A stretch of DNA of 64,000 bases from an uncultured Gammaproteobacteria bacterium (GTDB lineage: Bacteria; Patescibacteriota; Microgenomatia; UBA1406): NCBI GenBank assembly GCA_964414145.1, contig CAYPVH010000001.1, forward strand, positions 220,851-284,850, written 5' to 3'. Position numbers and translations under genes: made by a program. The notes under the pieces are model-generated. The model worked only from the letters and a program-made list of their open reading frames with translations. It made no database searches and was not told the DNA's origin. Of the stretch, positions 21,810 to 49,189 are shown one piece after another (position 1 is the stretch's first letter; each line of letters begins with the position of its first letter).

Positions 21810-22535
21810 TTATTTTATATGTTTCTTAATATATTTTTTACCTGTCTTTAGTTTTGAAAAAGTTTCTCGGTAGGCAATTTTGGGCATTAATTCTTTGTTT
21901 TCTTTTAAGTAACTACTCACTTCTTCTTTATGGTTTTTTATAAGTGAACGCAGCAACCAAGAAACAGCTTTGGTAATTAATATGTCTTTTTCGTGCTGTA
22001 ATTTTTTTATGTTTTTAAAAGCCAAGTTTCTTAGTTGTTCGTCTTTGCTTTTCCTTACTGCTTTGGTTAACAAAACCAAAGAAGCCCGGCGTTTGCTAAT
22101 GTTTTTACTGCTCACAAATGCCTTTAAAAGTTTTTGCCATTCTTGCCATTTACCTAAAAGTTCTTCCGGTTCGAAGGTAGATTGGCAAAGAGTATCTATT
22201 TCGGCCCAGCCCGATAAGTTGCTTAACCATATATCTAACACAAAAGGATCTAAATTTTGCCTGTGTTTTTTAAAACAAGTTAAAAGTTCGGTAACGCTGC
22301 TTTTTTCTTGGAAAGATTCACCCGAATTTAAAGAGTTGAGTAAATCTATAAAATCTGAAAACTGAATGTTCTTATTATTCCTAGCCCAATCTTTAATTAA
22401 CTTTCTTTTAACTAAAGTTTTTATACTGTAGTACTTGGCCTTACTGCCTAAATAGTTGTTTATGTCAAAGTTGTTATTTTTCGATGTGGAGTTATTTTTT
22501 ATCGCGGTTAAGATTTCCTTGTGGTATTTATGCAT
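21810..22535 (-). CDS. DNA alkylation repair protein (AlkD/AlkC-like HEAT-repeat family)
   Basis: Segments …IKDWARNN…, …DIWLSNLSGWAEIDTLC…, …KRRASLVLL… and …ITKAVSWLLRSL… are typical of PF08713-like proteins. The start is moved to the ATG at 22535 because the upstream extension overlaps tRNA sequences. Confidence 0.6.
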   Translation of the reverse strand: MHKYHKEILTAIKNNSTSKNNNFDINNYLGSKAKYYSIKTLVKRKLIKDWARNNKNIQFSDFIDLLNSLNSGESFQEKSSVTELLTCFKKHRQNLDPFVLDIWLSNLSGWAEIDTLCQSTFEPEELLGKWQEWQKLLKAFVSSKNISKRRASLVLLTKAVRKSKDEQLRNLAFKNIKKLQHEKDILITKAVSWLLRSLIKNHKEEVSSYLKENKELMPKIAYRETFSKLKTGKKYIKKHIK

Positions 22536-22546
22536 TGTTTTCTCTG

Positions 22547-22651
22547 AGCGGTGGACGAGACTTCCCAGAACATTCTGTTCTGGACCAGTCCCGAACTTAT
22601 AGTTCGGGGGAACTCGTGACCTGTCGCCTAGGGCGACCATTCTACCCAACT
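22547..22651 (-). pseudogene. 5'-truncated, diverged tRNA copy (tRNA-Gly-related) with a 46-nt insertion in the T-loop
   Basis: It aligns to tRNA-Gly from the D-loop to the 3' end (…AAGTTGGGTAGAATGGTCGCCCTAGGCGACAGGTCACGAGTTC[46 nt]AAGTCTCGTCCACCGCT). The last 19 nt are identical to tRNA-Gly. No 5' acceptor strand is present. Confidence 0.7.
22564..22609 (-). mobile_element. 46-nt palindromic mini-element (two hairpins, termini CCCCGAAC…GTTCTGGG) interrupting the T-loop of the tRNA copy
   Basis: The minus strand reads CCCCGAACTATAAGTTCGGGACTGGTCCAGAACAGAATGTTCTGGG, lying between TTC and AAGT of a TTCAAGT T-loop. Confidence 0.55.
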
Positions 22652-22653
22652 TG

Positions 22654-22726
<73 letters not shown>

Positions 22727-22800
22727 AATATTGAGTAAATTCAAGTATATCAAACAGTGCTTTACTCAACAACTCAGGATGCAGTTGTATAATTATTGTT

Positions 22801-23355
22801 ATGGTAGACACTTTACTAAAACTGTCAGGAATATTTAGCGAAATATTTGTTGTGAGTTTTGTGTTTTATTGCAAGAAGAGGGCAAAAAACTTTAGTTTAA
22901 CCAATAATGCTTTTAGTTACTTAGGAATGGACAATAGTACAGAACGTTTTTTCAACATTTCTCTTTTTTTTCTAATGCTTGTCCGCATGTTATTTATAAG
23001 CAAGATTCTTACCTTTTTCAATCTTTGGCCAAACTTACTACTTATAGTTTCGTTTTTTACTTCACTAGTAGCTCTTGGCGTAGTTTCTCTTGTTCCCTTC
23101 AATAAAAATAAAGTACTACATAACATATCAGCCTATACGATTTCTGTTTTTACTATTATTTTTGTGCTAGCGCTTGTTTTAGCCTTTTGGTCTATTAATC
23201 TGTCTCTTGCCGTTAGTAATATTGTTGTTGCTCTGTTTATGATTGCTATTGTGTTTAAATTCTTAACTTCCAAAAAAACTCTGGCTTTTGATCAAATGCT
23301 CTTTTTTGTATCTATCGTTATTTGGGATTGGCTAATGACTTGGCATATGTTGTAA
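22801..23355 (+). CDS. Hypothetical polytopic membrane protein
   Basis: 184 aa with 5-6 hydrophobic helices. Confidence 0.45.
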   Translation: MVDTLLKLSGIFSEIFVVSFVFYCKKRAKNFSLTNNAFSYLGMDNSTERFFNISLFFLMLVRMLFISKILTFFNLWPNLLLIVSFFTSLVALGVVSLVPFNKNKVLHNISAYTISVFTIIFVLALVLAFWSINLSLAVSNIVVALFMIAIVFKFLTSKKTLAFDQMLFFVSIVIWDWLMTWHML

Positions 23356-23379
23356 AAAGTAGTTATTAAAAAAAATAAA

Positions 23380-24726
23380 ATGATATTTTTTTCGGTTGTA
23401 TTAATTGGTGCTGTTATTTTTCAACTTAGCTTATTATTAACCACAAAACCTATATTTTATTCTGAGTTATTCTACTATCCTTGGCTAGTTAGTAAAGGGC
23501 TTATGCCATACCGAGATTTCTTTGATAATCATGGTTTTTTACTTTATTATGTTTTATCTCCATTTGTTCAAGTTAAATCTTTGTTAGCTTTAAATATTTT
23601 TTATATTGGCTTGAAGTTAGGAATTTTAGTATTAATTTTTTCGATATTGATGAGAATAACAAACAAAGTGGGTCTTTTGGTAGGTAGTTTACTAGCCATT
23701 ATTCTTCTTACATATTCAAGCGCCAATACCTTTTGGTTTGAACATGTTATTGCATTTTTATATCTGCTTGCTTTCTTCATTAGCACCAAAGAATTTAAAC
23801 TAAAGGGGTTTGTAGTTGGTACTATTGTGGTTGGTGCTTCTCTTATTAAACCACAAGCTGCTTTAATTATGATTCCCTTATGGCTTAGTTACCCAAGATT
23901 TAATTTTTTAATAACTTTTTGCGCTGGCTGGGGTTTGGTGGGTCTGTTCTTGTTATTTAACAATATGTTTATCCCGTTTATTGATAATGTTGTGCTTTTT
24001 AATAAATTTTATTCTCATGATATTGATTTTCATCTAGAAATGTCGGTAGTTATAATTGCCTTGTTTATCCTTTTACTAACAGCCCTAATTAATAAACAAA
24101 CTAAACTAAAAAATAATTACAACATAACTCTTTATGTATTAATTTCGACTATTTTTGTTTATCCACAATTTACCTATTTTAATTTAGTTCCGTTTTTTTG
24201 TTTATTAATAATTCAAATATCAAGAACAATTAATTTAATAAAGCACAATAAAATAAAATACTTTACTTACTTATCAATAGTACTAGTGTTTGTTTTATTT
24301 ATGGGGCGAAAGGCCTATAGAGAATATAAACAATACAAAGGGTCCTCTTTTTATTCATTTTCAGAAACGAGTCTTTCGGTTGTTAATTATCTTAAAAGCA
24401 GTAATTTGAGTAAGAAAAGGATTTATTTAATGAGCAATAATCTTGAAATATATTATCTTTTAAACAAATTGCCACCTGACTATTTTCCCTTAAAATTTTA
24501 TTTGTTTATTGATTACTATGATTTATCAGAAGTAACTTTAGAAAAAATGATAGCTTTTAAACCGGAAGTAGTTATTAGGCCATTAGAAAAAGATCAATCA
24601 AGCGGGGCCTATGAGAAAGCAGGGAAGTATGTAGAAGATAATTTTCAATTAGTTTGGGAAAAAGATAACTATAAAATATATCTATTAGAGAGTTTAATAA
24701 AGAAGAGTTCTATTTTTTATCACTAA
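23380..24726 (+). CDS. Large polytopic membrane protein, possible GT-C-type glycosyltransferase
   Basis: 448 aa with about 11 helices. The early loop YYPWLVSKGLMPYRDFFDNHG resembles GT-C first-loop regions. The call is weak. Confidence 0.4.
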   Translation: MIFFSVVLIGAVIFQLSLLLTTKPIFYSELFYYPWLVSKGLMPYRDFFDNHGFLLYYVLSPFVQVKSLLALNIFYIGLKLGILVLIFSILMRITNKVGLLVGSLLAIILLTYSSANTFWFEHVIAFLYLLAFFISTKEFKLKGFVVGTIVVGASLIKPQAALIMIPLWLSYPRFNFLITFCAGWGLVGLFLLFNNMFIPFIDNVVLFNKFYSHDIDFHLEMSVVIIALFILLLTALINKQTKLKNNYNITLYVLISTIFVYPQFTYFNLVPFFCLLIIQISRTINLIKHNKIKYFTYLSIVLVFVLFMGRKAYREYKQYKGSSFYSFSETSLSVVNYLKSSNLSKKRIYLMSNNLEIYYLLNKLPPDYFPLKFYLFIDYYDLSEVTLEKMIAFKPEVVIRPLEKDQSSGAYEKAGKYVEDNFQLVWEKDNYKIYLLESLIKKSSIFYH

Positions 24727-25090
24727 AAAACTGAATTATATTTCCATCGGGGTCTTTGATTGTCATACACCAAAAACCACCCGGTGGTGCTTCAAAGGGG
24801 GGAGCAACAAACTCAACATCTTTTTGCTTGAGATCATCATAAAGTGCTGTTACACTTTCAACGTTAAAACCAATCATAATTCGATATGGGTCTTTAGCGT
24901 ATCCTTTTACTTTGTTGTGTTTGCCAATAGAGAAGTAATTGTTGCCAAAGTCAAAATCTATGTAGGTATCATTGGGTAAATTTACCTTATCTCGAACTTT
25001 AAAACCTAAGACTTTTTCATACCAGATCGCTAGCTGCTCGTAATTTCCTGACCAAATAATAACGCAGAGGTTTTTGTTTGAAAGTTGCAT
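24710..25090 (-). CDS. VOC (glyoxalase/bleomycin-resistance) family protein
   Basis: Has paired beta-alpha-beta-beta-beta modules and ends …FWCMTIKDPDGNIIQFF. The start is moved to the ATG at 25090 to avoid tRNA-Phe. Confidence 0.7.
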   Translation of the reverse strand: MQLSNKNLCVIIWSGNYEQLAIWYEKVLGFKVRDKVNLPNDTYIDFDFGNNYFSIGKHNKVKGYAKDPYRIMIGFNVESVTALYDDLKQKDVEFVAPPFEAPPGGFWCMTIKDPDGNIIQFFSDKK

Positions 25091-25093
25091 GTG

Positions 25094-25825: not shown

Positions 25826-25826
25826 G

Positions 25827-25898
25827 TGCTCCAGCCTGGGATCGAACCAGGGACCCCCATTTTATAAGAATGGTGCTCTACCACTGAGCTACTGGAGC
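25827..25898 (-). tRNA. tRNA-Ile (anticodon UAU)
   Basis: GCTCCAG-TA-GCTC-AGTGGTA-GAGC-A-CCATT-CTTATAA-AATGG-GGGTC-CCTGG-TTCGATC-CCAGG-CTGGAGC-A. The anticodon reads TAT, not CAT. Confidence 0.8.
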
Positions 25899-40161: not shown

Positions 40162-40174
40162 GATGTGGGTTTTA

Positions 40175-40292
40175 TCCCAGAAGTAGCTTTTTCGCTACTG
40201 CGAAATTAGCACTTCGGGATCCCGTATTTCTACGCCAAATTCTATCATAAATTAAGGGATTTTATCAAAAATTTGGCTAGAAAGTACTGGGA
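40175..40292. mobile_element. About 118-nt structured mini-element bounded by TCCCAG…CTGGGA, between tRNA-Tyr and its decayed 5'-half copy
   Basis: The plus strand starts TCCCAGAAGTAGC…(inner hairpin TTTCGC-TACT-GCGAAA)…GCACTTCGGGATCCCG (40175-40224). A second hairpin GCCAAATT-N-AATTTGGC follows. The element ends AAGTACTGGGA at 40292. Confidence 0.5.
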
Positions 40293-40327
40293 CAGACCCG
40301 TGCGTTAGGCCACTCCGCCACCCCTGG
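40293..40327 (-). pseudogene. Diverged copy of tRNA-Tyr nucleotides 1-34 (5' half only)
   Basis: The minus strand reads CCAGGGG-TG-GCG-GAGTGGCCTAA-CGC-A-CGGGT-CTG and is then joined to TCCCAG. The D-stem differs from the intact gene by compensatory changes (GCG/CGC versus CCG/CGG). There is no 3' half. Confidence 0.7.
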
Positions 40328-40597: not shown

Positions 40598-40945
40598 ATG
40601 TATTCTTTTGAAAAACTTAAGGTTTGGCAAAAGTCTTTAGAGTTAATCAAAGACATATATCGTACGTGTGAAGAATTGCCAAAACAAGAAAGAACAAATT
40701 TAATAGACCAGATAAAAAGAGCGGCAACATCAATAAATTTAAATATTGCCGAAGGCGGTGGGGCAGAAAACAAGAAAGAAAATAAAAGATTTTTATATAT
40801 GGCAAGAAAATCTCTTTATGAAGTAGTAGCAATATTGTTAATTATTGAAAGGCTATACAAAATAGATATAACTAATCAAAGAAAGCAAGTTGATGAAGTT
40901 GGTAAAATGCTTAACGGGTTAATAAAGAGTTATAGTATAAGTTGA
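40598..40945 (+). CDS. Four-helix-bundle protein of the 23S rRNA intervening-sequence (IVS) / Avd-like family
   Basis: Carries FEKLKVWQKSLELIKDIY…LIDQIKRAATSINLNIAEG…RFLYMARKSLYEV, the signature of the S23-ribosomal/IVS-protein family. Confidence 0.8.
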   Translation: MYSFEKLKVWQKSLELIKDIYRTCEELPKQERTNLIDQIKRAATSINLNIAEGGGAENKKENKRFLYMARKSLYEVVAILLIIERLYKIDITNQRKQVDEVGKMLNGLIKSYSIS

Positions 40946-40988
40946 TAACTAGCTAATATTTACTAATAACTGAGAACTGAATGACTAA

Positions 40989-41108
40989 TTTTGACTGACA
41001 ACTGACAACTGAGAACCGACAACAGACAAATTTTGACTGACAACTGACAACTGAGAACCGACAACAGACAAATGTTGACTGACAACTGACAACTGAGAAC
41101 CGACAACT
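40989..41108 (+). repeat. 42-nt tandem repeat, about 2.9 copies, rich in CTGACAAC
   Basis: The unit TTTTGACTGACAACTGACAACTGAGAACCGACAACAGACAAA recurs with a period of 42 (unit starts 40989, 41031, 41073). The array runs up to 5 nt before tRNA-Ser(UGA). Confidence 0.85.
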
Positions 41109-41320: not shown

Positions 41321-41368
41321 GTTCACGAATATGGCGGGCGTATTTACAAGCTACGGCGAGACAAAGTC
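41321..41368 (+). repeat. 48-nt module homologous (45/48) to the sequence immediately 3' of GIY-YIG copy 3
   Basis: GTTCACGAATATGGCGGGCGTATTTACAAGCTACGGCGAGACAAAGTC matches the reverse complement of 48326-48373. No ORF lies between it and tRNA-Ser(UGA). Confidence 0.8.
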
Positions 41369-41541
41369 AGCCGGACAAAAGCGTATGTGGGATTTATATT
41401 TACTGAATCAAAAAAAAGCAAAGTTGTAGAATTATTCCCACTATACATCAGTATGGGTTAAGTGATATAATTTACCTTTCTCTTCTACACTTAAGTCCCT
41501 GTGGTTAGTGCAAGAGATAATATTATTTGAAAACTAAAAAA

Positions 41542-48129: not shown

Positions 48130-48343
48130 CCTAGTTATTCTGAATTGTACTAAATTAGATTTTTTTGTCAAATTAATTTTACTCAAAATATTCCTATTCT
48201 TATTATTGTAGGTATCGTTATTGACCAGTTAAGAACGAATTTTGTTTACGCTCTTAATCGGTAGACTTTGTCTCGCCGTAGCCGAGCTTCAGCGAGGCGA
48301 ACCCTGCTTTCGCTTTTATCAGGCGGACTTTGTCTCGCCGTAG

Positions 48344-48681
48344 ATTGTAAATTCGCCCGCCGTATTCGTGAACTTAGTATTTGAAAAAATGTTTCTTCAT
48401 AAACGCCCTACCAGAACCAGACTTTAAATATTTTTCAAATTTAAAAGCTGTAATTTCTTTATCAAATGCAAAGTATAGTTTCAGAGCTACTGGTGTTCTA
48501 TTTTTGGTTGCCTCAATGTAATTACTGTTATGCATTTGTAATCTGTCTTTTAGGTTATTTGTACATCCAATATATGTTCTGTTGTCATTACAAATAAGAA
48601 CATAAACGTAGTACATGGAATAATTGTAGCGGATTTGTATCGCTAAGCCTCAATAAATTTTGACTTTTTTTAGACAAAATT
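48344..48681 (-). mobile_element. 338-nt cassette carrying GIY-YIG copy 3, inserted in the loop of a repeat-unit hairpin
   Basis: Its boundaries are defined by where unit 2 departs from units 1 and 3 (after TTCGCCTC and before CTACGGCGAGAC). It contains a 5' hairpin GCCTCAAT…ATTGAGGC, a TACAAT box, the ORF and a 30-nt 3' tail. Confidence 0.55.
48374..48616 (-). CDS. GIY-YIG nuclease family protein (small, URI-domain only), copy 3
   Basis: MYYVYVLICNDNRTYIGCTNNLKDRLQMHN…E. TACAAT lies 6 nt before the ATG and there is no SD. Confidence 0.7.
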   Translation of the reverse strand: MYYVYVLICNDNRTYIGCTNNLKDRLQMHNSNYIEATKNRTPVALKLYFAFDKEITAFKFEKYLKSGSGRAFMKKHFFKY

Positions 48682-48753
48682 GAGGCGAATCCCGCTTTCG
48701 CTTTTATCAGGCGGACTTTGTCTCGCCGTAGCCGAGCTTCAGCGAGGCGAAGG

Positions 48754-48862: not shown

Positions 48863-48889
48863 ACCCAAAGCCCCTTTCGGTTTAGTCCC

Positions 48890-48979
48890 GAAAAACTTTC
48901 TCAACGGAACGTTGAGATTAGTTTTCGGGATCCCGAAGTACTAAACCCGATGAGTTTCATCGGGAAGTTACTTCTGGGA
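48890..48979 (-). mobile_element. 90-nt structured spacer or mini-element between the two copies of the tRNA-Ser 5' region
   Basis: The minus strand reads TCCCAGAAGTAAC-(hairpin CCCGATGAAACTCATCGGG)-TTTAGTACTTCGGGATCCCG, then the hairpin GAAAAC-TAATCTCAACG-TTC-CGTTGAGAAA-GTTTTTC. Its ends resemble those of the tRNA-Tyr and tRNA-Gly elements. Confidence 0.55.
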
Positions 48980-49100
48980 CAAACCTGTGCAATGGACCAC
49001 TACCTGCCCGCATTGCTATGCAAAGCGTTGCAGGCGGGTGCGACTCCTCCAATGAACCTGCCTTTTAATTATAACCCAAAGCCCCTTTCGGTTTAGTCCC
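48980..49100 (-). pseudogene. Duplicate of the promoter plus tRNA-Ser(GCU) nucleotides 1-34, with a 36-nt insertion in the D-loop
   Basis: Identical over 85/85 nt to 48805-48889 apart from the insertion at 49003-49038 (plus strand cctgcccgcattgctatgcaaagcgttgcaggcggg). It ends after G34 and joins TCCCAG. Confidence 0.75.
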
Positions 49101-49189
49101 TTATAACTTTCTTAGCACAGATATTATACTAAATGGAATAGTCACACTTAAGTGAAAATTAACTTAATTGTATTCCGTATAATAAGTTT

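What the first reader, a model, noticed from the sequence alone, without database searches (positions are those of the whole stretch)
22545..22670. tRNA-Gly followed by a 5'-truncated tRNA copy sharing an identical 19-nt 3' block, with a 46-nt palindromic insert in its T-loop
The 19-nt sequence AAGTCTCGTCCACCGCTCA (T-loop 3' part, T-stem, acceptor, trailer) occurs at 22652-22670 as the end of tRNA-Gly-GCC and again at 22545-22563. Between the two copies lies a diverged tRNA body running from the D-loop to the T-stem, with no 5' acceptor strand.

The T-loop of that body (TTC|AAGT) is split by a 46-nt insert made of two hairpins (CCCCGAAC-TATA-AGTTCGGG and CCAGAAC-AGAA-TGTTCTGG). The insert termini (CCCCGAAC…GTTCTGGG) resemble the CCCAGAAG…CTTCGGG termini of the elements at the Tyr and Ser loci. 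On the plus strand TCCCAGAAC again abuts the tRNA-derived breakpoint directly.

This looks like a third member of the same mini-element family, here at the T-loop. The T-loop is the other classical integrase sublocation in tRNA genes.
Basis: seen in the sequence. Interest (0 to 1): 0.6.

Follow-up and report, generated by a model that had tools for sequence, protein, structure and literature searches.

The report
Broken tRNA-Gly copy with palindromic insert
Directly after a working glycine tRNA gene lies a headless second copy whose T-loop is split by a 46-base double hairpin, and this hairpin resembles a widespread, apparently undescribed family of small palindromic elements that sit in the loops of disrupted tRNA genes next to an intact replacement tRNA.

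Summary
tRNA-Gly(GCC) is on the minus strand at 22653-22726. It is followed directly by a 5'-truncated tRNA-like body (22610-22651), a 46-nt insert of two 8-bp hairpins (22564-22609), and an exact 19-nt repeat of the tRNA 3' end (22545-22563).

It is not a misassembly. The same structure occurs in independent assemblies and at the orthologous site of a sister species. There, all three substitutions in the insert fall in the hairpin loops. A more distant relative has a plain tRNA-Gly.

A scan with their termini found 83 metagenome contigs against about 0.15 expected. Members are two inverted hairpin modules with strong covariation and TCCCAG...CTGGGA ends. They split a tRNA gene in the anticodon, D or T loop, and an intact tRNA with the same anticodon always lies beside or inside them. 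Removing the insert in silico restores the host tRNA in 14 loci.

The Gly locus shares the family's basal stem, polarity and architecture. It fails the family covariance model (8 bits), and its 46-mer was found nowhere else.

Best reading: an inherited, constrained relic of tRNA-gene replacement. The mobilising enzyme is unknown.

The parts
22653..22726 (-). Functional tRNA-Gly(GCC). CCA is not encoded; the sequence runs ...CCACCGC-T-CA|AG.
   Evidence: ARAGORN. Rfam RF00005, 70.4 bits. Sequence.
22652..22670 (-). Copy 1 of the 19-nt direct repeat AAGTCTCGTCCACCGCTCA. It covers T-loop A57 to the tRNA 3' end plus CA.
   Evidence: Exact match, 0 expected.
22610..22651 (-). Gly' body: a 5'-truncated tRNA-like segment covering about positions 14-56. 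It contains a D-loop, GAAT, a 15-nt palindrome in place of the anticodon arm, the variable loop AGGTC, the T-stem 5' strand ACGAG, and TTC. It abuts the functional tRNA with no spacer.
   Evidence: Not called as a tRNA. Only 2 substitutions against L002.
22623..22637 (.). 15-nt palindrome GTCGCC-CTA-GGCGAC occupying the anticodon-arm position of Gly'.
   Evidence: The same GTCGCS...SGCGAC hairpin type occurs in displaced Pro' (L081) and Val' (L087) copies.
22564..22609 (.). 46-nt insert splitting the T-loop between C56 and A57. On the minus strand it reads CCCCGAACT-ATA-AGTTCGGG, ACTGGT, CCAGAACA-GAA-TGTTCTGG-G. On the plus strand it has the family-like ends CCCAGAAC...GTTCGGG.
   Evidence: Unique in the window. 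Fold z = -6.6. Termini pattern: 3 hits against 0 expected. Covariance model R1 gives only 8 bits. All 3 differences from L002 lie in the two 3-nt loops.
22545..22563 (-). Copy 2 of the 19-nt repeat. This is the 3' part of the displaced Gly' copy (A57 to the 3' end plus CA). It ends 9 nt before the alkD start codon.
21810..22535 (-). alkD-like DNA alkylation repair gene. It lies immediately downstream and is probably co-transcribed. Gene callers over-extend it through Gly' and the tRNA.
   Evidence: Pfam PF08713, 5.5e-24. Homologues. Over-called products P0001, P0121 and P0122. No promoter-like or terminator-like site between the tRNA and alkD.
40162..40327 (-). Canonical family member at the Tyr locus. 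It consists of the displaced Tyr' 5' fragment 1-34 (40327-40293), module TCCCAGTAC..TACGGGA (40292-40220), inverted module (40219-40175), and the host remnant TAAAACCCA plus CATC (40174-40162). tRNA-Tyr follows at 40161-40076.
   Evidence: Covariance model R1: 71.3 bits (+) and 29.8 bits (-). Sequences. The D-stem of Tyr' differs from tRNA-Tyr by a compensatory pair (CCG/CGG against GCG/CGC).
48879..49112 (-). Canonical family member at the Ser(GCT) locus. It consists of a duplicated upstream region plus the displaced Ser' 5' fragment 1-34 (49050-48980, with a 36-nt hairpin at 49038-49003), module 1 (48979-48931), module 2 (48930-48886), and the host remnant CTAAACC (48885-48879). A spacer and tRNA-Ser follow (48839-48752).
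   Evidence: Covariance model R1: 60.0 bits (-) and 42.5 bits (+). 74-nt repeat at 96% identity. Sequences.

Best explanation
The Gly locus is an inherited relic of tRNA-gene turnover. The functional tRNA-Gly(GCC) is followed, with no spacer, by a displaced and non-functional earlier copy (Gly', positions about 14-76). Gly' has three defects: it lacks the 5' acceptor and D-stem strand, its anticodon arm is replaced by a 15-nt palindrome, and its T-loop is split (C56|A57) by a 46-nt palindromic module.

That module is a short, atypical relative of a widespread family, probably of Patescibacteria. Family members are small non-coding DNA elements with TCCCAG...CTGGGA ends, made of two inverted hairpin modules. 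They are found inside the anticodon, D or T loop of a tRNA gene and are always accompanied by an intact tRNA with the same anticodon.

Shown:
- the anatomy of the locus;
- that family elements are true insertions, because removing them in silico restores the host tRNA;
- the same-anticodon companion tRNA;
- the inheritance of the Gly structure in a sister species, and its conservation there.

Inferred:
- The family acts at the DNA level as a mobile or recombining cassette. It inactivates the resident tRNA gene and supplies a replacement, which is expressed from the host promoter and probably released from the module-2 helix by normal tRNA processing.
- Gly' plus the 46-mer is what remains of such an event, or of a partial tandem duplication later hit by a module.
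- The relic has been kept under constraint since the two species split, possibly as a structured spacer or 5' leader between tRNA-Gly and alkD.

The enzyme that moves the elements is unknown.
For: Anatomy.

Real and inherited: the identical arrangement occurs in L002 (JGI) and L003 (Logan) of a sister species with AlkD 86-87% identical. Two further JGI contigs have over-called AlkD products that translate identically through the region. It is absent in L004-L006 (AlkD 69% identical), where a plain tRNA-Gly with encoded CCA is followed by pspC.

Constraint: there are 5 differences in 88 nt, against 16-22% divergence at third codon positions (P = 0.003 to 3e-5). All 3 differences in the insert lie in the 6 loop nucleotides (P = 0.0013).

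Family:
- The termini pattern gives 3 hits in the window against 0 expected.
- TCCCAGAAGTA-N25-45-CTTCGGGATCCCG is found in 83 metagenome contigs against about 0.15 expected.
- 9 of 18 helix pairs covary.
- The same covariance model hits the partner module on the opposite strand.
- 60 of 68 non-redundant copies have an intact tRNA within 9-90 nt on the same side.
- Removing a 162-176-nt insert in silico restores an ARAGORN-recognised tRNA with the same anticodon as the nested tRNA in 14 of 14 such loci: Thr TGT, GGT and CGT, Cys, Pro.
- In 12 of 17 T-loop-class loci the element splits a coherent T-arm at T55|C56. The truncated copy lies 0-15 nt after the functional tRNA, which is the Gly layout.
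- L087 has a functional tRNA-Val directly followed by a Val' copy starting at the D-loop, as in Gly'.
- L058 has a 36-nt collapsed hairpin in the T-loop of a 3' fragment identical to the functional tRNA.
- The basal stem GAAC/GTTC with a bulged T is the module-2 variant of L042 and L043.
Against: - The 46-nt insert scores only 8 bits (E about 3) with the family model, and L002 gives no hit at E <= 0.01.
- It is one compact double hairpin, not two inverted modules joined at GGGA|TCCC. It sits one base away from the canonical T-loop site.
- The 46-mer is unique in the window. Its central 20-mer is absent from 185,579 representative genomes and from IMG/VR. Mobility of this copy is therefore not shown.
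- The T-arm and 3' end of Gly' are identical to those of the functional tRNA, so nothing marks either copy as foreign. A purely local partial tandem duplication explains that equally well.
- No transposase or recombinase is consistently linked to the family in the flanks examined.
- Strong conservation of the stems suggests the structure now does something. 'Relic' may therefore understate it.
Confidence: 0.55

Rival explanations
1. Purely local origin. A partial tandem duplication of tRNA-Gly (positions 14-76) decayed in place, and its palindromes arose by local processes. The resemblance to the Ser and Tyr elements is limited to a short GC-rich stem and is not due to common descent.
For: The direct-repeat geometry fits a 107-nt duplication unit: a 19-nt exact repeat, no spacer, and a T-arm identical to the functional copy. 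The covariance model fails. The 46-mer is unique. Partial tRNA fragments without any hairpin element also occur near tRNAs in the fetched contigs, for example L012, L018 and L038.
Against: A 15-position termini match that occurs only three times in 64 kb, all three at tRNA breakpoints, is not expected by chance (0.00 expected). The polarity, the loop position and the 'functional tRNA, then truncated copy with split T-loop' layout all match the family's T-loop class. The stems are conserved far beyond neutral expectation.
Confidence: 0.15
2. Classical integrase scar. The two 19-nt repeats are the attL and attR of a tRNA-integrating island or prophage that used the T-loop sublocation. The interior of the island was later deleted, leaving 88 nt.
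For: A direct repeat of the tRNA 3' end starting in the T-loop is the textbook signature of tyrosine-integrase integration (established knowledge; see also PMC9897764). The region between tRNA-Phe and tRNA-Gly varies among relatives.
Against: There is no integrase, recombinase or phage gene on either side. The 88 nt between the repeats are a tRNA-like body plus hairpins, not island DNA. Under integrase logic the partial T-arm at attR would be continuous, not split by an insert at the crossover point. The same tiny architecture recurs in many unrelated contigs, which random internal deletions would not produce. There are no matches in viral contigs.
Confidence: 0.08
3. Primarily a functional RNA element. 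Gly' plus the hairpins would be a structured spacer or 5' leader of the tRNA-Gly-alkD co-transcript. It could act as a processing or stability signal, or as a tRNA-like decoy for RNase Z or RNase P. On this reading its origin as a tRNA copy is incidental.
For: The stems and linker are invariant, and all the insert's substitutions are in loops, between species whose synonymous sites differ by 16-22%. The structure persists even though 19-nt direct repeats flanking palindromes are deletion-prone (established knowledge). There is no promoter-like or terminator-like site between the tRNA and alkD, and alkD starts 9 nt after the repeat. The whole tRNA plus Gly' segment folds well (z = -4.0).
Against: Only two species are available, so there is no covariation and only conservation. 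No Rfam family matches. The closest relative lacking the element (L004) has an ordinary tRNA followed by a gene. Hairpin stems can also be kept by DNA-level processes.
Confidence: 0.17
4. Assembly artefact, or a cryptic second tRNA that contains an intron.
For: Repeats and palindromes can mislead assemblers.
Against: The same sequence occurs in at least three independent assemblies plus two further contigs, judged by their translated products. The copy has no 5' acceptor strand or anticodon loop. ARAGORN and Rfam do not call it, and there is no group I intron hit.
Confidence: 0.01

Closest known systems
tRNA-gene-targeting integrative elements (tyrosine-integrase islands and prophages; anticodon-loop, T-loop and 3'-end sublocations)
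   Same: The target is a tRNA gene loop. The gene stays functional because a replacement part comes with the insertion. A displaced partial tRNA copy remains as a direct repeat. The 19-nt repeat here starts in the T-loop.
   Different: There is no integrase and no cargo genes. The whole unit is about 90-200 nt of non-coding palindromes. In many family members a complete tRNA, not just the 3' part, is supplied. The partial copy is itself split by the hairpin element at the breakpoint. No att-site test was possible.
Non-autonomous palindromic repeats (MITEs; REP/BIME/REPIN doublets)
   Same: They are small and non-coding, with terminal inverted repeats, two inverted hairpin modules, bulged bases and helices kept by compensatory change.
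   Different: Family members are confined to tRNA-gene loops and always paired with a same-anticodon tRNA. No RAYT or transposase partner was found. The Gly 46-mer is single-copy as far as could be searched. No target-site duplication is seen.
Disrupted tRNA genes of Archaea, and the mobile-element model of tRNA disruption (Caldiarchaeum subterraneum tRNA-Thr; PMC3293823)
   Same: A tRNA 5' fragment lies next to a complete tRNA of the same anticodon, separated by an inserted element. Insertions occur at non-canonical loop positions.
   Different: The archaeal case involves a 1.8-kb element that encodes a recombinase, and introns removed by the splicing endonuclease. Here the hosts appear to be bacteria, the insert is 46-176 nt and non-coding, and many displaced copies are truncated, so they are clearly dead.
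Group I introns at position 35/36 of Patescibacteria tRNA genes (bioRxiv 10.1101/2025.07.03.662931)
   Same: Probably the same phylum, and the same anticodon-loop position (35|36) as the family's Thr class.
   Different: There is no group I intron hit in Rfam. The elements occur in either orientation, also target the D and T loops, carry a nested tRNA, and leave truncated host copies. The Gly insert is 46 nt and sits in a headless copy.
Partial tRNA gene fragments mis-annotated as tRNAs (PMC9897764)
   Same: Gly' is a non-canonical partial tRNA next to a real one. It is the kind of fragment that paper attributes to integration of genetic elements.
   Different: That survey concerns fragments left by large integrated elements or by CRISPR activity, not fragments split by small palindromic modules.

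Membership tests
TCCCAG...CTGGGA two-module tRNA-loop elements (family defined here; model R1) | Basal stem TCCC-[bulged A]-GAAS ... STTC-GGGA at the ends of a module | tested here: met
   The insert matches CCCAGAAS-N20-50-STTCGGG, one of only 3 matches in 64 kb against 0.00 expected. The GAAC/GTTC variant is also seen in module 2 of L042 and L043. The terminal T...A pair is missing if the insertion is read as lossless.
TCCCAG...CTGGGA two-module tRNA-loop elements (family defined here; model R1) | Full-length match to the covariance model of a module (GAAGU-A-NNN ... NNN-ACUUC helix plus an inner hairpin) | tested here: not met
   8.0 bits, E = 2.9 at 22563-22603(+). The Tyr and Ser modules score 71, 60, 42 and 30 bits. 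L002 has no hit at E <= 0.01.
TCCCAG...CTGGGA two-module tRNA-loop elements (family defined here; model R1) | Two inverted modules joined at CGGGA|TCCCG | tested here: not met
   The insert is two 8-bp hairpins separated by ACTGGT. There is no GGGATCCC junction.
TCCCAG...CTGGGA two-module tRNA-loop elements (family defined here; model R1) | Lies inside a loop of a tRNA-derived sequence, with coherent stem halves on both sides | tested here: met
   It splits TTC|AAGT between the T-stem strands ACGAG and CTCGT. The canonical T-loop class splits at TT|CRAAT in 12 of 17 loci. The site here is one base further 3'.
TCCCAG...CTGGGA two-module tRNA-loop elements (family defined here; model R1) | An intact tRNA with the same anticodon lies immediately beside or inside the element, on the side away from the A-bulge end | tested here: met
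   tRNA-Gly(GCC) lies 42 nt from the insert on that side. In the family this holds for 60 of 68 copies. The anticodon of Gly' itself is lost, so 'same anticodon' rests on its identical acceptor and T-arm.
Classical integrase-mediated tRNA integration scar (attL/attR) | Direct repeat of the 3' part of the tRNA gene | tested here: met
   19-nt exact repeat starting in the T-loop.
Classical integrase-mediated tRNA integration scar (attL/attR) | Integrase or recombinase gene, or island DNA, between or next to the repeats | tested here: not met
   Only 88 nt of tRNA-like and palindromic DNA lie between the repeats. The neighbouring genes are alkD, an AAA_28 protein, fpg, two ORFs with no Pfam match, and a glyoxalase.
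Functional or intron-containing tRNA gene | Cloverleaf with a paired acceptor stem and a 7-nt anticodon loop, allowing for an intron | tested here: not met
   There is no 5' acceptor strand, and the anticodon arm is a 6-bp stem with a 3-nt loop. Neither ARAGORN nor Rfam calls it, and there is no group I intron hit at E <= 10.
MITE / REP-type multicopy repeat | Multiple near-identical copies dispersed in the genome | tested here: inconclusive
   The 46-mer occurs once in the 64-kb window, allowing up to 3 mismatches. Its central 20-mer has no exact match in the GTDB representative genomes or IMG/VR. The rest of the source genome could not be searched.

The most novel reading that the evidence does not exclude
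The Gly relic, together with the canonical Ser and Tyr elements in this window, may expose a previously undescribed class of selfish, protein-less DNA cassettes in Patescibacteria. These cassettes would insert into the loops of tRNA genes, kill the resident gene, and stay viable by bringing their own tRNA with the same anticodon, nested in a processing-stem-like hairpin. Repeated over time, this would cause serial replacement of tRNA alleles and leave stacked fossil fragments. On this reading the Gly copy is an exapted derivative kept by selection as a structured spacer before alkD.

A more extreme variant is not excluded, because the ends are symmetric (UCCCAG/CUGGGA). In that variant the inserts are removed at the RNA level, which would amount to protein-dependent tRNA splicing in Bacteria.
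Probability: 0.4. Interest if true: 0.85.

Novelty: new variant of a known kind. Interest (0 to 1): 0.62.

Why it matters
tRNA genes are classic landing sites for large integrating elements. Here the same logic, disrupting the gene while supplying a replacement, appears in elements of only about 90-180 non-coding bases. Some of them carry a whole tRNA nested inside another tRNA gene.

If this is confirmed, it would matter in four ways:
- It would explain the many odd partial tRNAs in genomes of candidate-phyla-radiation bacteria.
- It would reveal a route for horizontal replacement of essential single-copy tRNA genes.
- It would define a new loop-specific insertion mechanism whose enzyme is still to be found.
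- It would warn annotators, because gene callers already read alkD through this region.

The Gly locus adds a case in which such a remnant has been conserved between species. That makes exaptation directly testable.

Tried and rejected
- **Source genome.** Exact look-ups of the window's AlkD, in three start variants, found nothing on record. The Fpg look-up gave only a 989-nt contig.
- **GTDB representative genomes.** The 20-mer GTTCGGGACTGGTCCAGAAC gave 0 hits. The search for related loci with AlkD gave 151 pattern hits, none confirmed. The source species and its sister are therefore not among the representatives.
- **Viral contigs.** 0 hits for the Gly 20-mer and 0 for the family termini. 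This gives no support for a phage attP.
- **Rfam.** Searches at gathering and at E-value thresholds, on the window and on four family loci, found only tRNAs and noise.
- **Protein-database trick.** Searching with the translation across Gly' and the insert returned no candidate, not even the known over-called products. This result is uninformative.
- **Distant AlkD loci.** The loci for P0003 and P0012 have no tRNA-Gly synteny.
- **Associated mobilising gene.** All-against-all ORF clustering of the 83 loci found no recurrent transposase or integrase. A large serine recombinase is genuinely present in only 2 loci; other cluster members are translations of tRNA DNA. Small GIY-YIG ORFs recur in 3 loci and in the window, but no link could be shown.
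- **Literature.** No paper holds CTTCGGGATCCCG or either RNA spelling. Text searches for nested, disrupted or replaced tRNA genes in Patescibacteria gave no description of these elements.

Considered and rejected:
- Suppressor tRNA. The CTA in the pseudo-anticodon position sits in a 3-5-nt loop of a copy with no acceptor stem.
- Split or permuted tRNA. There is no 5' half.
- Integron attC. The core sites do not fit.
- Group I intron. There is no catalytic core, and the elements occur in both orientations.
- IS200/IS605-like or IS91-like single-strand transposition. This remains only an idea; nothing tested here bears on it.
Full report
**1. What is there**

The tRNA is on the minus strand. ARAGORN and Rfam place tRNA-Gly(GCC) at 22653-22726. 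In the tRNA sense the locus reads as follows:

- tRNA-Gly, ending ...GAGTTCAAGTCTCGTCCACCGCTCA.
- A 42-nt tRNA-like body with no spacer before it (22651-22610): AGTTGGGTAGAATG / GTCGCCCTAGGCGAC / AGGTC / ACGAG / TTC.
- A 46-nt insert (22609-22564).
- AAGTCTCGTCCACCGCTCA again (22563-22545).
- Nine bases, then the ATG of an alkD-like gene.

The 19-mer occurs exactly twice, with 0 expected. The insert is unique in the window. It folds into two 8-bp hairpins with 3-nt loops on either strand (z = -6.6).

The second copy has no 5' acceptor or D-stem strand. A perfect 15-nt palindrome stands where the anticodon arm should be. Neither ARAGORN nor Rfam (E up to 10) calls it a tRNA or an intron.

**2. 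Real, inherited and constrained**

AlkD homologues led to syntenic contigs.

L002 (JGI) and L003 (Logan) come from a sister species. Their AlkD is 86-87% identical to the window's, and third codon positions are 78-84% identical. They carry the same tRNA-Gly, Gly', insert and repeat directly before alkD. Two more JGI contigs encode over-called AlkD products that translate identically through the region. Misassembly is therefore excluded.

L004-L006 (AlkD 69% identical) have an ordinary tRNA-Gly with encoded CCA, followed by pspC and alkD. They have no second copy.

Between the window and L002, the 88 nt between the repeats differ at 5 positions. That gives P = 0.003 to 3e-5 against neutral rates of 16-22%. 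The three differences inside the insert all lie in the six loop nucleotides (P = 0.0013). So the structure was present in the common ancestor of the two species. Its stems have since been conserved more strongly than synonymous sites.

**3. The 'Tyr and Ser elements' are a large family**

The pattern CCCAGAAS-N20-50-STTCGGG has three matches in the window against 0.00 expected. They are the Gly insert, a site upstream of tRNA-Tyr, and a site upstream of tRNA-Ser(GCT).

At Ser and Tyr, a 5' tRNA fragment ending at G34 is followed by two hairpin modules. The functional tRNA comes after them.

A single metagenome scan with the Ser/Tyr termini, TCCCAGAAGTA-N25-45-CTTCGGGATCCCG, returned 83 contigs against about 0.15 expected. 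The 24 fixed bases are invariant by construction. The unfixed helix positions, however, covary strongly: 9 of 18 pairs have double changes, and one pair shows up to four pair types.

A covariance model of one module (R1) also finds the partner module on the opposite strand in most loci and in the window. The Ser partner scores 42.5 bits and the Tyr partner 29.8 bits. An element is therefore a pair of inverted modules joined at CGGGA|TCCCG, with TCCCAG...CTGGGA ends.

No Rfam family matches. None of the literature searches found a description. No copy was found in IMG/VR.

**4. What the family does to tRNA genes**

In element orientation, the left end always abuts a tRNA-derived sequence that stops inside a loop, nearly always after a G. 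The classes are:

- anticodon loop 34-36: Thr TGT, GGT and CGT, Ser, Tyr, and Cys in antisense;
- D-loop 15|16: Pro, Gln;
- T-loop 55|56 in antisense: Leu, Val, Asp, Ala, His.

An intact tRNA lies 9-90 nt to the right in 60 of 68 non-redundant copies.

In the Thr, Pro and Cys loci that tRNA sits inside the loop of module 2, whose two arms pair right up to the ends of the tRNA. The rest of the interrupted gene follows. Deleting the 162-176-nt insert in silico restores an ARAGORN-recognised tRNA in 14 loci, every time with the anticodon of the nested tRNA.

The outer halves are mutually coherent but differ from the nested tRNA. In L008, for example, the acceptor is GCCGACG/CGTCGGC in the outer gene and GCCAGGG in the nested one. 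The functional allele of one contig (L024, GCCGTGA) is the disrupted outer allele of another (L021). This points to serial replacement.

Many displaced copies are truncated or carry further small hairpins. They are therefore dead genes, not intron-bearing ones.

The elements occur in both orientations relative to the tRNA, whereas the nested and host tRNAs are always co-oriented. This fits a DNA-level insertion in which the replacement tRNA is expressed from the host promoter (inference).

No transposase or integrase recurs in the flanks. The mobilising activity is unknown.

**5. Where the Gly locus fits**

In the T-loop class, the functional tRNA is followed within 0-15 nt by a 5'-truncated copy. 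That copy usually consists of only the T-stem 5' strand plus TT, then the element, then CRAAT, the T-stem 3' strand and the acceptor 3' strand. In 12 of 17 loci the two stem halves are complementary.

The Gly locus has this architecture and this polarity: the A-bulge end CCCAGAAC abuts the 3' fragment. Two other loci have comparable features:

- L087 has a tRNA-Val directly followed by a Val' copy that starts at the D-loop.
- L058 has a 36-nt collapsed hairpin in the T-loop of a 3' fragment identical to the functional tRNA.

The GTCGCS...SGCGAC palindrome of Gly' recurs in the displaced Pro' and Val' copies of L081 and L087.

The Gly insert nevertheless differs from canonical members in four ways:

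- It is 46 nt rather than about 90 nt, with two short hairpins and no GGGATCCC joint.
- It sits at C56|A57 rather than T55|C56.
- It scores only 8 bits (E about 3) with R1.
- No other copy was found.

I therefore treat it as a short, atypical relative. It is related by its basal stem and its context, not by demonstrable full-length homology.

**6. Mechanism**

Shown:
- the anatomy of the locus;
- its inheritance and conservation;
- that family members are insertions accompanied by same-anticodon replacement tRNAs.

Inferred:
- Gly' is a displaced former tRNA-Gly copy. It arose either from a replacement event or from a partial tandem duplication that a module later hit.
- The relic persists because the structure is now useful. 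It may serve as a structured spacer or 5' leader between tRNA-Gly, which has no encoded CCA, and alkD. No promoter-like or terminator-like site lies between them.
- 19-nt direct repeats flanking palindromes are deletion-prone (established knowledge), so retention in two species suggests selection.

**7. Rivals**

- Purely local duplication and decay. This explains the identical T-arm but not the termini, the polarity, or the conservation.
- A classical integrase scar. There is no integrase or island, the partial T-arm is split at the would-be crossover, and the same small layout recurs widely.
- A primarily functional RNA. This is compatible with the conservation, but there is no covariation from only two species.
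- An artefact or a cryptic tRNA. This is refuted.

**8. Comparison with known systems, and verdict**

The logic resembles tRNA-integrating islands, and the form resembles MITE or REPIN doublets. The closest published picture is the mobile-element model for a disrupted archaeal tRNA-Thr (PMC3293823). Patescibacteria group I introns share the 35/36 position but nothing else.

I rate the Gly locus as a new variant of a known kind. It is moderately interesting in itself, and more so as an entry point to an apparently undescribed family of tRNA-loop cassettes.

Noticed in passing
window 48879-49112 (-) and 40162-40327 (-): These are canonical two-module elements at the Ser(GCT) and Tyr loci. At Ser, the upstream region plus the tRNA 5' part is duplicated (74 nt at 96% identity). 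A degenerate module-2 end (AAGAAAGTTATAAGGGA|CTAAACC) precedes the upstream copy, which suggests at least two successive events. The D-stem of Tyr' differs from tRNA-Tyr by a compensatory pair, so Tyr' derives from a different functional allele.
   Followed up: partly
metagenome loci L008, L016, L017, L025, L026, L033, L037, L044, L054, L055, L063, L068, L073, L078: These loci show tRNA-in-tRNA nesting. A 162-176-nt insert carrying a complete tRNA splits a tRNA gene with the same anticodon. Removing the insert in silico restores the outer tRNA.
   Followed up: yes
window 49003-49038 (-); L021, L059, L049: A 36-nt GC-rich hairpin (CCCGCCTGCAACGC..GCAATGCGGGCAGG) is inserted without loss in the D region of the displaced Ser' fragment. 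Very similar hairpins (CCTGCCCGCAATGCTACGCATAGCGTTGCAGGCGGG) sit in displaced Thr and Lys fragments elsewhere. This looks like a second mini-element type.
   Followed up: no
window 22623-22637; L081 about 1708; L087 about 2037: A GTCGCS-N3-5-SGCGAC palindrome recurs inside three independent displaced tRNA copies (Gly', Pro', Val'). About one chance hit is expected in the whole 575 kb searched (my estimate).
   Followed up: partly
window 48374-48616 (-), 48232-48343, 48682-48751, 41321-41394: An 80-aa GIY-YIG ORF lies just 3' of tRNA-Ser(GCT). It is bracketed by repeats of about 66-74 nt. A further inverted copy lies 3' of tRNA-Ser(TGA). Small GIY-YIG ORFs also occur in 3 of the family loci.
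   Followed up: no
window 40598-40945 (+), 40983-41108: A 23S_rRNA_IVP / bAvd-like four-helix-bundle gene lies between tRNA-Cys and tRNA-Ser(TGA). It is flanked by CAGTTGTCAG-type repeats and by five tandem 21-nt units.
   Followed up: no
window 25826-25898 (-); L004 134-206: ARAGORN calls a tRNA-Ile with anticodon TAT. This is unusual for Bacteria, where AUA is normally read by a lysidine-modified CAU tRNA.
   Followed up: no
window 22727-25092 compared with L002 470-476 and L004 2969-5397: tRNA-Phe and tRNA-Gly are 5 nt apart in the sister species. In the window they are 2.4 kb apart, separated by two ORFs with no Pfam match and a glyoxalase. In L004 they are separated by a 772-aa ORF. This interval is variable.
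   Followed up: no
L026, L038, L067 (upstream of tRNA-Leu): A different element type (GCTCAACTGACAGTTT..ACTGTCAGTTAGTCCCGCC..GGCGGGAG) follows a displaced tRNA-Leu 5' fragment that is broken in the D-loop. It occurs in three unrelated contigs.
   Followed up: no
window 21810-22811 (-): Gene callers extend alkD by 79-92 codons through the insert, Gly' and the tRNA (320-aa and 333-aa products in public databases). This is an annotation artefact caused by the open frame.
   Followed up: yes
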